Shown: positions 1-3,252 of the stretch, piece after piece
Layout of the letters: the number at the start of each line of letters is the position of its first letter
How positions within the stretch are numbered: position 1 is the first letter of the stretch
Virus record (IMG/VR): IMGVR_UViG_3300017829_000024
Span: 1,157 to 65,156 of that record
DNA: 64,000 bases
Direction: 5' to 3' (one strand)
From: a virus
Position numbers and translations under genes: made by a program
Notes under the pieces: model-generated
The model's input: only the letters and a program-made list of their open reading frames with translations
Told to the model about the DNA's origin: nothing
Database searches by the model: none

Positions 1-837
1 GTAACCGGGAAAACGGATACGCACACGCGCGATCGCATTCTTCATGACCTCAAGACAGGCCGTTTGCGCGCCGTGACCAACGCAGACATCTTGACCGTCG
101 GATTCGACTGCCCACGAATCGATTTCATTGGCCTTCTTCGCCCCACGCTTTCGCCGGGACTCTTCGTTCAGATGGTGGGGCGCGGTCTTCGGCTTCATCC
201 AGACAAGGCCGACACCCTCATTCTCGACTACGGAGGCAACATTCAAAGACACGGAACGCTCGATGCGATCCGAATGCGTGAGCCCGGCGACAAGAAGGGA
301 ACTGCGCCCACGAAGGTCTGCCCCGTCTGTACGGCTGAGATCCCTCTGGCGGCCACAGAGTGCCCCGAGTGCCATGCCGATATCCGCAGCGAAGAGAGGC
401 CCAAGCCGAAACACGACGCAGAGGCCTCTGAGCAGGAGATCATTGGCACAGGCGCGCCCATAGAGGCGGTGAATGAAACTGTCACCGAGGTCCAGTATGC
501 CTATCATCGCGGCCGAAACGGAAAACCCCCGACCATGAAGGTCACCTATCGGCTCCAAGGCAAGCCTGCGCCCGTGTCCGAATGGGTCTGCATCGAGCAT
601 GATGGGTGGGCTCGGACGAGGGCCGAAAGCTGGTGGTTGCGTCGCTCCCTCGATAAGAAACACGCACCCGAAACGATTGAAGAAGCCCTCGCCCGAGCAC
701 CGGGCCTTCTTCAGCCACGGATCTTGGCCGTCGTCTACCCGCCTGATAGCTATCCAAAGATACGATGGGCAAAACGATTCATCGACCCGATCGGTCGACC
801 CGGGATGGAGAATGTGCGTCGGCTCAAACCAGTGTAG
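1..837 (+). CDS. SF2 (DEAD/DEAH, RadD/YejH-like) helicase, C-terminal part; 5' end outside window
   Basis: Frame open from base 1; motif V TNADILTVGFDCP, motif VI FVQMVGRGLR, LILDYGGNIQRHG, Zn ribbon CPVC..CPEC. Confidence 0.88.
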   Translation, partial: VTGKTDTHTRDRILHDLKTGRLRAVTNADILTVGFDCPRIDFIGLLRPTLSPGLFVQMVGRGLRLHPDKADTLILDYGGNIQRHGTLDAIRMREPGDKKGTAPTKVCPVCTAEIPLAATECPECHADIRSEERPKPKHDAEASEQEIIGTGAPIEAVNETVTEVQYAYHRGRNGKPPTMKVTYRLQGKPAPVSEWVCIEHDGWARTRAESWWLRRSLDKKHAPETIEEALARAPGLLQPRILAVVYPPDSYPKIRWAKRFIDPIGRPGMENVRRLKPV

Positions 838-1096
838 AGCACTATTATCATTGGCTCAAAGACGGCACGCGACTAGAACTTCTAGAGTGGGTTGGCGCAC
901 CGCTGGTCAGCTTTGAAGAGCTTGAAGAGATGGGCTACACGGTCATCATTGATAAGCGACTCGAGGTAACTCCTGGATTTGAACAGATGTAACGGGCCTC
1001 GGCATGCGGAAGCGGCGCGTTAAATGGCACAAGTTTACAGCATGCAATGGTATAGGCTTGACAGCGAAGCGAGGCGCCGCATACAGCGGTTTGCGG

Positions 1097-1768
1097 ATGA
1101 CAAAATCACAGCTTGCGGCGCCTCGTCGCATGAAGATCTCAACCGAATGCGCATTCACAATCAAGGGGCAAATAGACTGCCCCTTGCTGATGCACGCGCC
1201 GACAACCGTTGACCCGCTGAACCCATATTCAGTGAAGATGCGTAAGGTCTCTACAAAGCGCCAGAAAACCGAAGATGATTACGAGGCTATCTCTCGGATT
1301 GAGTTTCTTGCAGGGCTCTATTTCGAGGACGGAACCGGTCCGTACATTCCAAGTCGGGTCATTTCCGCGTGTTTGATTGATGGCGCTAAGAAGTTCAGGC
1401 TCGGTCGCGCCGCCCGTGCCGGCATTACGCCTAAATCGCCCCGGTTCTTCTTCAAGAAGTGGCGCGGACCCAAGACCGCCGAGGCGCTCTTTGAGTCTCG
1501 GCTCAAAGACGGAACACAGCGGTATGTTGATAAGCGATGCGTTCGCGTTACAACCAGCCGGATCATGAGGACGCGCCCCCGGTTTGACGCCTGGGAGATC
1601 GACGTAAGCCTCATCATTGACGCGACCGCATTTGATCCCGAGCGAATAGAAGACATCGTGCATGCCGCGGGCACGCTCGTCGGCATCTGCGATAATCGAC
1701 CCGAATGCGGACGATTTGAGCTCGATGGCGACATTGTCTTGACAGAAAACACACTCAAGATGGCCTAA
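1097..1768 (+). CDS. Small Cas7/RAMP-like RNA-binding protein (Vipr-like effector); start at 1097 or 1130
   Basis: FTIKGQ..PLLMH, YIPSRVISACL, R.RPRFDAW and C-terminal G-rich loop AGTLVGICDNRPECGRF typical of RAMP folds; lies upstream of a GGY-NN array. Confidence 0.72.
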   Translation: MTKSQLAAPRRMKISTECAFTIKGQIDCPLLMHAPTTVDPLNPYSVKMRKVSTKRQKTEDDYEAISRIEFLAGLYFEDGTGPYIPSRVISACLIDGAKKFRLGRAARAGITPKSPRFFFKKWRGPKTAEALFESRLKDGTQRYVDKRCVRVTTSRIMRTRPRFDAWEIDVSLIIDATAFDPERIEDIVHAAGTLVGICDNRPECGRFELDGDIVLTENTLKMA

Positions 1769-1781
1769 AAGGAGAACATCA

Positions 1782-2267
1782 ATGAATGCAGCAGAGAGGC
1801 GTCAACACGCACTTTCCCCGAAGGACCGAGCCATTGAGCGCGCTCATGTTCTCGCCGAGAAGATGATGGACTCACCCGGCGTAAGCTGGCCGGTTGACAC
1901 TGTCTGTCGCGAGCTTCAGATCCCCAAATGCAGAACGCATGACAGATACATACTGAGCGGATTCGAGGCGCTCTATCTGCATTCGGAGCTCGAACGTCAC
2001 GGTCATTACCTTGTGCCGGCTCGATCGGGAAACCGTGTGCAGTCCTACCATCTGGCAGATGATCGCGAAAAAGAACTGGTTGTCGCCAAGAAGTACGAGC
2101 AAAAGTCCATAACCTGCCTTGAAAAGCGCGTTCGCATCCTTGGTCAGGTTGTCAACTCGGACTACAACTCCGAGGAGAGAAAAAGATTAGAGGCCACGCG
2201 CCGCATCGCTTCCGCCGAGCTTGATGCGATAAAGCGCGCAAGAAAGCGCCACAAAGACGGCATCTGA
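1782..2267 (+). CDS. Accessory protein between RAMP-like gene and repeat array (function unknown)
   Basis: 161 aa ORF with RBS AAGGAG; stop codon 4 nt before the first pentamer. Confidence 0.75.
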   Translation: MNAAERRQHALSPKDRAIERAHVLAEKMMDSPGVSWPVDTVCRELQIPKCRTHDRYILSGFEALYLHSELERHGHYLVPARSGNRVQSYHLADDREKELVVAKKYEQKSITCLEKRVRILGQVVNSDYNSEERKRLEATRRIASAELDAIKRARKRHKDGI

Positions 2268-2271
2268 TCTT

Positions 2272-2850
2272 GGTTTGGCAGGGCATGGCCGGGCAAAGCC
2301 CGATCAGGCGCGGCCGGGTCAGTTGTGGCAAGGCTTGGCAGGGCTGGGCATGGCTAGGCATGGCAGGGCAGGGATTTGATCTGAATGTTTTACGGGGCCA
2401 GGCTCGGCAAGGCCCGGTGTGGCGTGGCAGGGCACGGTTCGGCACGACTTGGCACGGCAAGGCAAGGATTTGAATTCTAGATTTTTTCGGGGCATGGCAT
2501 GGCCAGGCTGGGCAAGGCAAGGATTTGAGTTTCAGAATTTAAACGCGGCCCGGCTCGGTGGGGTTCGGTGGGGCAAGGCACGGCGTGGCATGGCGAGGCA
2601 TGGATTTGAATTCTAAATTTAGATGCGGCTAGGCATGGCCTGGCTGGGCGCGGTCGGGCTCGGCCCGGCACGGTGCGGCATGGCCTGGCTGGGCTGGGCA
2701 AGGCAAGGATTTGAGTTCTAGGTTTTCACCAAGGCCGGGTTAGGCATGGCAGGAATTTGAGTTCTCAGTTTACGCGAGGCATGGCCGGGCGAGGCTCGGC
2801 GGGGCGCGGTATGGTGAGGCCAGGCGAGGCGCGACAAGGCAAGGGTTTGA
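2272..2850 (+). ncRNA. GGY-NN pentamer array, 7 units (20,14,6,11,16,4,13 pentamers), putative guide-RNA array
   Basis: Strict 5-nt periodicity; units at 2272-2371, 2396-2465, 2491-2520, 2547-2601, 2627-2706, 2733-2752, 2778-2842; each ends in GGATTTGA (variants GAATTTGA, GGGTTTGA); units separated by 24-26 nt AT-rich linkers. Confidence 0.9.
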
Positions 2851-2856
2851 GTGGAT

Positions 2857-3252
2857 ATGACACGCATTGAAACGATTGATCCGTCTCGGTTTGACGGCCG
2901 CCTTCGCCATCTTCCGCAGCCCAATGAAGACCTTCCCGTCCGTGCGTTTTGGGCAGACTATCTTGGTCAACCCAAAGGCCCCAAATGGAGGGGGCGCTTC
3001 GTTGACTGCGGAGACTATCGAGTCGAGCTTGTGCTTGATGATCAACAGTACCCAGACACGGTCAATCGATGTCCTCCGGGATGGTGGGATCGCCGCACCG
3101 GTCGGCCCTGCGGTGTGCCGGCGGATGTGGCATCGTTTCGGTTCGAGCTCATTCCAGCCGGCGAAACGCACTGGAGACAAGATGGCCAAAAGAAGCTTGA
3201 AGCGACGACGCATGACGAAGAAGAAGGCGCGTCAAAGCCTCCGAGACGGTGA
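2857..3252 (+). CDS. Hypothetical protein
   Basis: ORF starts right after the array; no recognised motif. Confidence 0.55.
   Translation: MTRIETIDPSRFDGRLRHLPQPNEDLPVRAFWADYLGQPKGPKWRGRFVDCGDYRVELVLDDQQYPDTVNRCPPGWWDRRTGRPCGVPADVASFRFELIPAGETHWRQDGQKKLEATTHDEEEGASKPPRR

What the first reader, a model, noticed from the sequence alone, without database searches (positions are those of the whole stretch)
70..111. The phage's own helicase carries a diverged copy of the unit-2 target (possible self-avoidance)
Own motif V codons (76-111), positions 1-2, are AC AA GC GA AT TT AC GT GG TT GA TG (TNADILTVGFDC). The guide-specified string is GT AA GT GA GT CT AC AC GG TT GA TG. 7 of 12 dinucleotides match exactly, 3 have one mismatch and 2 have two. 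The substitutions (NAD, IL, TVG) also depart from the usual NVDVLTTGFD consensus as I recall it. Inference: the guide targets close relatives sharing this helicase, while this phage escapes by non-synonymous change.
Basis: partly seen in the sequence, partly recalled or inferred. Interest (0 to 1): 0.8.

Follow-up and report, generated by a model that had tools for sequence, protein, structure and literature searches.

The report
Phage helicase near-match to its own guide
A phage with a recently described CRISPR-like silencing system (VIPR) has one guide RNA that spells a conserved helicase motif of rival phages; its own helicase holds a diverged copy that the guide should not bind, but there is only weak evidence that the phage mutated in order to escape.

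Summary
Window 76-111 holds motif V of the phage's own RadD-like SF2 helicase (TNADILTVGFDC). At codon positions 1-2 it matches the unit-2 guide at 7 of 12 dinucleotides (17/24 nt), or 8/13 (19/26, 73%) with the next Pro codon. This is the best unit-2 site in the 65.5-kb genome, and it exists because the genes are homologous.

The array is a VIPR system, described in 2026 preprints. The adjacent protein matches the solved SUSP1 Vipr (E 7e-23).

The self-avoidance reading is partly supported.
- **For:** 73% is below the 80% cut-off used in the VIPR papers. VIPR has no PAM, so mismatches are the only protection. All five mismatches lie at the tail-proximal end, where R-loop formation starts. The closest relative (74% identical) would score 81-85%; own-lineage V->I and T->V, and perhaps the TTG Leu codon, pull the self site below 80%.
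- **Against:** T and A of "TNAD" are shared with that relative and common across the clade. The own site sits at the family median. Footprint divergence is not in excess (3 differences against 2.0 expected). The only perfect target is 41% identical, so not a close relative.

Other windows of this scan show similar near-self VIPR guides. This is a new example of a known kind.

The parts
1..837 (+). 3' part of the phage's own RadD-like SF2 helicase gene. The full gene is genome 281-1993, 570 aa (P0002), and starts 876 nt upstream of the window.
   Evidence: ORF and translation. Pfam ResIII, DEAD and Helicase_C. 639 homologues with E<=1e-30, some named RadD or DEAD/DEAH helicase.
76..114 (+). Motif V codons TNADILTVGFDCP: the diverged self copy of the unit-2 target. 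It matches 8/13 dinucleotides and 19/26 informative nt. The mismatches are at codons 1, 3, 5, 6 and 8.
   Evidence: Genome-wide scans. Homologous position in the alignment with the perfect-target helicase.
1130..1768 (+). vipr gene (RAMP-type guide-binding protein). The ORF may start at 1004.
   Evidence: phmmer hit to PDB 36pp_D 'SUSP1 Vipr protein', E 7e-23, residues 17-199. 18 homologues, several next to NNGGY arrays.
1782..2267 (+). 161-aa accessory (vap-like) gene between vipr and the array. Function unknown.
   Evidence: ORF. No Pfam hit. Its position matches the vipr-vap-vrRNA layout in the VIPR paper.
2270..2866 (+). Array of seven vrRNA units. Each is a run of NNGGY pentamers that mostly ends AAGGC AAGGA, followed by a conserved TTTGA(A/G)TTCTA-type tail.
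   Evidence: Pentamer parsing. The array finder also detects it.
2394..2490 (+). Unit 2 vrRNA: 13 variable dinucleotides, 2 constant AA units and the tail. It is antisense to V-N-V-D-V-L-T-T-G-F-D-C-P codons.
   Evidence: Decoding. Perfect 13/13 target in L001, and at least 80% NN identity in 8 of 30 family members from IMG/VR.

Best explanation
Unit 2 of this phage's VIPR array is transcribed into a vrRNA. Vipr protomers coat it, hide each GGY and present the 13 variable dinucleotides. The filament binds double-stranded DNA whose codon positions 1-2 spell V-N-V-D-V-L-T-T-G-F-D-C-P, the motif V coding region of RadD-like replication helicase genes in rival phages, and blocks their transcription.

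The phage's own helicase gene carries the homologous motif as TNADILTVGFDCP. Five of the 13 guide dinucleotides (7 of 26 nt) cannot pair with it. All five lie in the eight tail-proximal units, where VIPR R-loop formation begins. VIPR has no PAM, so this sequence difference is the only thing that can spare the own gene. The own site is therefore a tolerated near-target.

The divergence has two layers:
- T1 and A3 are inherited and common in the surrounding helicase clade.
- I5 and V8 arose on the phage's own branch, and the TTG Leu codon may have too (the relative's codon is unknown). These are what take the site from about 81-85% to 73% identity.

Shown here: the anatomy, the counts, the homology and the phylogenetic distribution. 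Inferred from the SUSP1 and P. fulva papers: binding, silencing, directionality and the relevance of the 80% level. Open: whether the own-branch changes were selected by the guide, or the guide was simply retained because the own allele already differed.
For: - VIPR identity: Vipr homology to the solved SUSP1 protein, the GGY/NN array with tails, and the published mechanism and 1-nt-skip rule.
- Targets: a perfect 13/13 target in L001, an 11/11 match in more than 120 IMG/VR contigs, and 8 of 30 family members found by homology at 81% or more.
- Self site: 19/26, best in the genome, next best 16.
- No PAM, and no self hit at or above 80% in the published sets.
- Assembly and R-loop run 3'-to-5' from the tail, and the own mismatches are at codons 1, 3, 5, 6 and 8, which pair with tail-proximal units.
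- The nearest relative P0005 (74% identity) has TNADVLTTGFDGP.
- T325V is one of only two own-derived departures among 83 columns that are at least 90% conserved.
- TTR codons are 10.6% of Leu codons in this genome.
- The own contig has no DnaB_C or UvrD domain, so unit 2 is the only helicase-motif guide with a self homologue.
- A second phage contig with a motif-V guide (L158) has a RadD-like ORF that lacks the motif-V domain altogether.
Against: - No binding or silencing data exist for this system. The 80% level is a bioinformatic convention, and no mismatch-tolerance measurement was found in the three VIPR papers.
- The own site's identity to the guide equals the family median.
- The footprint shows 3 differences from the nearest relative against 2.0 expected.
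- The chance that one of the two rare own-derived changes falls in the footprint is about 0.14, and the TTG codon about 0.11. Neither is significant.
- T1 and A3 are clade-level states.
- Cys12, which the own gene shares with the guide, goes the wrong way for an escape.
- The nearest relative's DNA and VIPR status could not be obtained.
- The contig is only about 81% complete.
Confidence: 0.7

Rival explanations
1. Adaptive escape. After the phage acquired a motif-V guide aimed at helicases like its own, selection fixed changes in its own essential helicase (V->I, the double-nucleotide T->V, and the CTN->TTG Leu switch) to lift it out of its own guide's reach.
For: - The inferred ancestor and the nearest relative would score 81-85% to the guide, against 73% for the own gene.
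- Both own-branch amino-acid changes lower complementarity.
- T->V needs two nucleotide changes, removes both paired bases, and hits a 92%-conserved residue. It is one of only two such own-derived departures in 83 highly conserved columns.
- The Leu codon belongs to the rare TTR class, 10.6% genome-wide.
- No PAM exists, so only mismatches can protect.
- Self-targeting would hit a site about 1 kb upstream of vipr on the same strand.
Against: - None of the tests is significant (p about 0.14 and 0.11; 3 against 2.0 expected differences).
- I at position 5 and V at position 8 both occur in family members whose held loci carry no arrays.
- Cys12 moves toward the guide.
- Two of the five mismatches predate the split from the nearest relative.
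- The order of events (guide first or divergence first) cannot be read from one genome.
Confidence: 0.25
2. Pre-existing difference only. The own helicase belonged to a TNAD-type lineage that already differed enough. The guide was acquired or kept because it did not match self, and the own-branch changes are neutral drift unrelated to the guide.
For: - About 73% of family members (22 of 30) already fall below the 80% level, and the own site is at the median.
- TNA[ND] is widespread in the 99%-supported clade that holds the own gene.
- Footprint divergence is not in excess.
- The guide's perfect target lies in a different clade at 41% identity.
Against: The nearest relative's motif would still pass the 80% cut-off. 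The changes that bring the own gene below it are own-branch, and one hits a nearly invariant residue.
Confidence: 0.45
3. Weak self-binding is functional. Partial pairing of unit 2 with the own motif V tunes down transcription of the own helicase-vipr operon (autoregulation).
For: The own site is the best unit-2 match in the genome, with five contiguous matched dinucleotides at the tail-distal end. It lies upstream of vipr on the same strand.
Against: - Identity is 73%, with mismatches clustered where assembly starts.
- The published systems show no self hits, and disturbing NN pairing abolishes silencing.
- No promoter or terminator signal defines an operon here.
Confidence: 0.05

Closest known systems
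Type II VIPR systems of Escherichia phage SUSP1 and the Pseudomonas fulva prophage (bioRxiv 10.64898/2026.04.26.720920 and 10.64898/2026.04.26.720927)
   Same: A Vipr RAMP protein (E 7e-23 to the solved SUSP1 Vipr), a small accessory gene, and vrRNAs made of GGY/NN pentamers with a constant 3' tail. Targets are read with one skipped base that falls on the codon wobble position. Targets lie in competing mobile elements, and no self site reaches 80% NN identity.
   Different: Here the guide aims at a near-universal catalytic motif (SF2 motif V) of a replication helicase, not at satellite or prophage regulators. The carrier phage itself encodes a homologue of the target. The tail is short and differs in sequence. 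Nothing has been tested experimentally for this system.
Self versus non-self discrimination by vrRNA-targeting vrRNAs in SUSP1-family phages (bioRxiv 10.64898/2026.10.15.759431)
   Same: A phage's guide matches rivals' homologous locus better than its own, which the authors read as avoidance of autoimmunity while targeting competitors.
   Different: There the homologous self locus is a non-coding vrRNA gene. Here it is an essential protein-coding motif, where escape at informative positions needs amino-acid changes or a six-fold-codon switch.
CRISPR self-targeting avoidance (PAM or repeat-flank discrimination; established knowledge, not tested here)
   Same: An RNA-guided system must spare the DNA of its own carrier.
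   Different: CRISPR spares its array through a missing PAM or through repeat pairing. VIPR is reported to have no PAM, so only guide-target mismatches can protect a homologous self gene.

Membership tests
VIPR system | Vipr protein (minimal RAMP) encoded next to the array | tested here: met
   P0124 (window 1130-1765) matches PDB 36pp_D 'SUSP1 Vipr protein', E 7e-23, over residues 17-199.
VIPR system | vrRNA genes made of tandem GGY/NN pentamers followed by a constant 3' tail | tested here: met
   Seven units at 2270-2866, mostly ending AAGGC AAGGA plus a TTTGA(A/G)TTCTA-type tail.
VIPR system | Guide dinucleotides match natural targets under the 1-nt-skip rule, with the skipped base at the codon wobble position | tested here: met
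   Unit 2 matches L001 motif V codons 13/13 in frame and matches 11/11 in more than 120 IMG/VR contigs.
VIPR system | No self site at or above 80% NN identity | tested here: met
   The best self site of unit 2 is 19/26, or 73%. The long guides (units 1, 2, 4, 5, 7) have no self site above background, and the 5-dinucleotide units 3 and 6 are too short to be informative.
VIPR system | Vipr-vrRNA filament binds dsDNA and silences transcription | not testable with these tools
   Known only for SUSP1 and P. fulva.
RadD-like SF2 helicase (the own gene) | SF2 motor domains with motif I and motif V | tested here: met
   Pfam ResIII, DEAD and Helicase_C. It has PTGSGKS and LTVGFD motifs. Homologues are named RadD or DEAD/DEAH helicase.
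Adaptive self-escape of the carrier's own gene | Mismatches to the guide are specific to the carrier's lineage and absent from relatives without the guide | tested here: inconclusive
   I5 and V8 are own-branch, while T1 and A3 are shared with the nearest relative and the clade. The relative's DNA and VIPR status are unavailable.
Adaptive self-escape of the carrier's own gene | More change in the guide footprint than expected from the conservation of those columns | tested here: not met
   3 differences observed against 2.0 expected. The own site is at the family median of guide identity.

The most novel reading that the evidence does not exclude
The phage's own weapon has shaped a catalytic motif of its own essential enzyme. 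After it gained a wobble-blind guide against helicase motif V, its own helicase was driven to ILTVGFD with a TTG Leu codon. That includes a two-nucleotide T->V change at a 92%-conserved residue, and it drops the site below the guide's binding threshold. A second phage with a motif-V guide (L158) solved the same problem by losing the motif-V domain of its helicase. This would be the first case of VIPR-driven co-evolution between a guide and the carrier's own protein sequence.
Probability: 0.25. Interest if true: 0.6.

Novelty: new member of a known kind. Interest (0 to 1): 0.35.

Why it matters
VIPR reads only codon positions 1-2 and has no PAM. A guide aimed at a conserved protein motif is hard for rivals to escape, but it is equally dangerous for a carrier that has the same gene family. 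This locus is a natural test case for that conflict. It pairs one guide with four kinds of site: a perfect foreign target, a graded series of family members at 62-100% identity, a nearest relative at about 81-85%, and a self site at 73%. Measuring binding across this series would give the first natural calibration of VIPR mismatch tolerance and of any positional (tail-proximal) weighting. It would also show whether carrying such a guide constrains or drives the evolution of the carrier's own replication enzyme. As it stands, this is an example of a published principle (self-match lower than rival-match), not a new mechanism.

Tried and rejected
- **Nearest relative's DNA (P0005, 74% identity, 3.1-kb JGI contig).** The exact-product look-up found nothing. 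Its Leu codon and VIPR status therefore stay unknown. Absence of vipr is only inferred, because no Vipr homologue above 41% identity exists in the protein collection.
- **Vipr relatives in IMG/VR by peptide patterns.** None found.
- **Reciprocal warfare.** None of the guides of L001, the contig with the perfect target and its own VIPR, matches this phage above a shuffled-guide null.
- **Guides from other VIPR loci.** Guides of L030, L035, L036, L038, L073, L095, L106 and L140 do not decode to motif V and hit nothing informative. No replicate test of self-avoidance came from them.
- **Other motif-V guides.** An antisense LTTGFD guide pattern has no match in IMG/VR. The sense pattern gave the single contig L158.
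- **The idea that the guide targets the own helicase's sister lineage because both share the rare Cys12.** Rejected. IQ-TREE places the L001 helicase outside the 99%-supported clade that holds the own gene, although FastTree had put them weakly together.
- **Own Walker A versus unit 4.** Only 5/12 dinucleotides match, which is background.
- **Unit 5.** A 12-dinucleotide core of its target pattern has no exact match in IMG/VR.
- **Promoter and terminator scan of 1-3000.** At shuffle level, so it gives no evidence on co-transcription.

Full report
**1. What is at the coordinates**

The window starts inside a gene. Frame 1 of the + strand is open from base 1 to 837. The window is bases 1157-65156 of a single 65,515-bp virus record, classed as linear and about 81% complete. 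Reading upstream gives a 570-aa protein, P0002. It has Pfam ResIII, DEAD and Helicase_C domains. It has hundreds of homologues that sources name DEAD/DEAH helicase or RadD, and this helicase type is common in cultured phages.

Window 76-114 reads ACC AAC GCA GAC ATC TTG ACC GTC GGA TTC GAC TGC CCA. This is TNADILTVGFDCP, motif V of the helicase.

**2. The guide**

Window 2270-2866 holds seven units of NNGGY pentamers. Each unit ends in a conserved tail. The reverse complement of unit 2's variable dinucleotides is GT AA GT GA GT CT AC AC GG TT GA TG CC. As codon positions 1-2, this spells V-N/K-V-D/E-V-L-T-T-G-F/L-D/E-C/W-P.

The literature search shows this is a VIPR system, in which:
- Vipr, a minimal RAMP protein, polymerises on a vrRNA of alternating GGY and NN.
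- The NN bases pair with double-stranded DNA while every third target base is skipped.
- The skipped base usually falls on the wobble position.
- There is no PAM.
- Binding silences transcription, and natural targets are competing mobile elements.

The protein encoded at 1130-1765 matches the solved SUSP1 Vipr protein (PDB 36pp_D, E 7e-23). Earlier notes of this scan on the same genome reached the same identification.

**3. Check of the observation**

With the Pro codon it is 8/13 and 19/26, or 73%.

This site is the best unit-2 match on either strand of the genome. The next best has 6 dinucleotides or 16 nt.

The number alone is only modestly beyond chance for 131,000 positions. I calculate about 0.25 sites expected at 7/12 or better, and 4.3% of shuffled guides reach 19/26 somewhere. 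What makes it real is its location. It sits in register on the codons that align with the guide's perfect target in a homologous gene. So 'diverged copy of the target' is correct, and the cause is homology.

None of the longer guides (units 1, 2, 4, 5, 7) has a self site above background. The own contig has no DnaB_C or UvrD domain. Unit 2 is therefore the only helicase-motif guide whose target family is also present in the carrier.

**4. Who is targeted**

- The 13-dinucleotide pattern has a single exact match in IMG/VR, on contig L001. It lies in the motif V codons of a helicase that is 41% identical to the own one over its whole length.
- No exact 12-dinucleotide match exists in 185,579 prokaryote genomes.
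- Among 30 relatives found by protein homology, without regard to the motif, identity to the guide runs from 16/26 to 26/26. The median is 19/26, and eight relatives are at 81% or more.

The guide is therefore broad within one motif variant. It is not aimed at close relatives.

L001 itself carries a Vipr homologue (32% identical) and at least eight vrRNA units. Four other target-bearing contigs also have arrays near the helicase. The rivals include other VIPR carriers. Their guides do not hit this phage.

**5. Is the own copy protected?**

The VIPR papers call targets at 80% NN identity or more, and they report no self hit at that level for any system. The own site is at 73%, or 67% if the two constant AA units are counted.

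No measurement of mismatch tolerance exists in the three papers. One paper states only that disturbing NN pairing abolishes silencing.

The structural paper shows that filament assembly and R-loop formation run 3'-to-5' along the vrRNA, starting from the tail. The own mismatches are at codons 1, 3, 5, 6 and 8, which pair with the eight tail-proximal guide units. The five tail-distal units all match. If the SUSP1 directionality holds here, the mismatches are placed where they block binding most effectively. This is an inference.

A bound complex at 76-114 would sit about 1 kb upstream of vipr on the same strand. The promoter and terminator scan says nothing either way about co-transcription.

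**6. Did the own gene evolve away from the guide?**

The closest homologue in 5.8 billion proteins is P0005, at 74% identity. The next is 45%. Its motif is TNADVLTTGFDGP.

- **Own-branch:** I5 and V8.
- **Position 12:** Cys in the own gene, which matches the guide, and Gly in P0005.

An IQ-TREE tree puts own+P0005 (support 100) inside a clade of 36 sequences (support 99) in which TNA[ND]VLTTGFD is common. The L001 helicase lies outside this clade. T1 and A3 are therefore clade-level states, and the shared Cys is convergent. The earlier FastTree grouping with L001 was weak.

From its amino acids, P0005 would score 21-22/26 to the guide (81-85%), which is above the published cut-off. The own-branch changes bring the own gene to 73%. 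These are V->I, T->V, and possibly CTN->TTG, since the relative's Leu codon is unknown.

T->V needs two nucleotide changes and hits a 92%-conserved column. It is one of only two own-derived departures among 83 columns that are at least 90% conserved. TTR codons make up 10.6% of Leu codons in this genome and occur at this Leu in 4 of 30 relatives.

Against an adaptive reading:
- The footprint shows 3 own-versus-P0005 differences where 2.0 are expected from column conservation.
- The chance that one of the two rare changes falls in the six highly conserved footprint columns is about 0.14.
- I5 and V8 each occur elsewhere in the family.
- Of 30 homology-found loci, only L001 and L030 carry arrays.
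- The own site sits at the family median of guide identity.

P0005's contig could not be fetched. Its lack of vipr is inferred only from the absence of any Vipr homologue above 41% identity.

**7. A second case**

A search for arrays whose guide spells L-T-T-G-F-D found one more IMG/VR contig, L158. It has a Vipr homologue (27% identical) and dispersed vrRNAs. A sense-orientation guide for V-N-V-L-T-T-G-F-D-A lies directly upstream of its own RadD-like ORF.

That ORF aligns with the own helicase only over residues 17-249, the first motor domain. No Helicase_C or motif V exists in any frame of the 5.7-kb contig. Its best self match is 15/24.

This is a single case on a short contig. It fits the idea that carriers of a motif-V guide do not keep a matching motif V, but it proves nothing alone.

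**8. Verdict**

- **Observation:** confirmed.
- **Interpretation:** partly supported. The own site is a homologous near-target that the guide most likely does not bind (confidence about 0.7). In a PAM-less system, mismatches are the only available protection.
- **Adaptive escape:** the claim that the phage escaped by mutation is possible (about 0.25) but not demonstrated. Two of the five mismatches are inherited, and no test shows excess change.
- **'Close relatives':** the claim that the guide targets them is not supported for the perfect target, though the nearest known relative would pass the published threshold.

The principle of a self-match lower than the rival-match is already published for vrRNA-targeting vrRNAs. 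Other windows of this scan show similar near-self guides. This is a new example of a known kind. Its main value is as a ready-made natural series for measuring VIPR mismatch tolerance.

Noticed in passing
L001:3484-5621 (minus strand): The only IMG/VR contig with a perfect unit-2 target carries its own VIPR system. It has a partial Vipr gene (32% identical to this phage's) and at least eight vrRNA units with a TTGGA(C/G)(T/A)TTTT...GTACAAC-type tail, interspersed with small ORFs upstream of an ATPase gene and the targeted helicase. None of its guides matches this phage above a shuffled null.
   Followed up: partly
L158:3352-4513: A second viral contig has a guide that spells helicase motif V (sense orientation, V-N-V-L-T-T-G-F-D-A). 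The RadD-like ORF directly downstream keeps only the first motor domain and has no motif V. The vrRNA is followed by a sequence with a tRNA-like T-arm (GGTTCGAGTCCTGCC), but ARAGORN calls no tRNA.
   Followed up: partly
L073, L095, L106, L140, L030 (coordinates): Several phage contigs with RadD-like helicases have multi-unit NNGGY arrays within a few kb of the helicase gene. Their tails resemble this phage's (AAGGATTTGAAAC...). VIPR cassettes seem to recur in this replication module.
   Followed up: no
window 2625-2709: Unit 5, read antisense, decodes to [IM]-A-V-G-[DE]-R-A-[HQ]-[RS]-[IM]-Y-A. From memory this resembles UvrD/PcrA-type motif III (VGDxxQSIY). A 12-dinucleotide core has no exact match in IMG/VR, and the phage has no UvrD domain.
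   Followed up: partly
window 2270-2374, 2489-2523, 2731-2754: Units 1, 3 and 6 do not decode to a motif I recognise. Unit 1 has two off-pattern pentamer pairs and may be two guides. Units 3 and 6 have only about five variable dinucleotides.
   Followed up: no
genome 65,116-65,515 (just beyond the window's 3' end): The last 400 bases of the contig contain tRNA-like T-arm sequences on the minus strand (for example GGATTTGAACC and GGACTCGAACCCC). The contig is linear and about 81% complete, so genes could be missing from the self-target survey.
   Followed up: no
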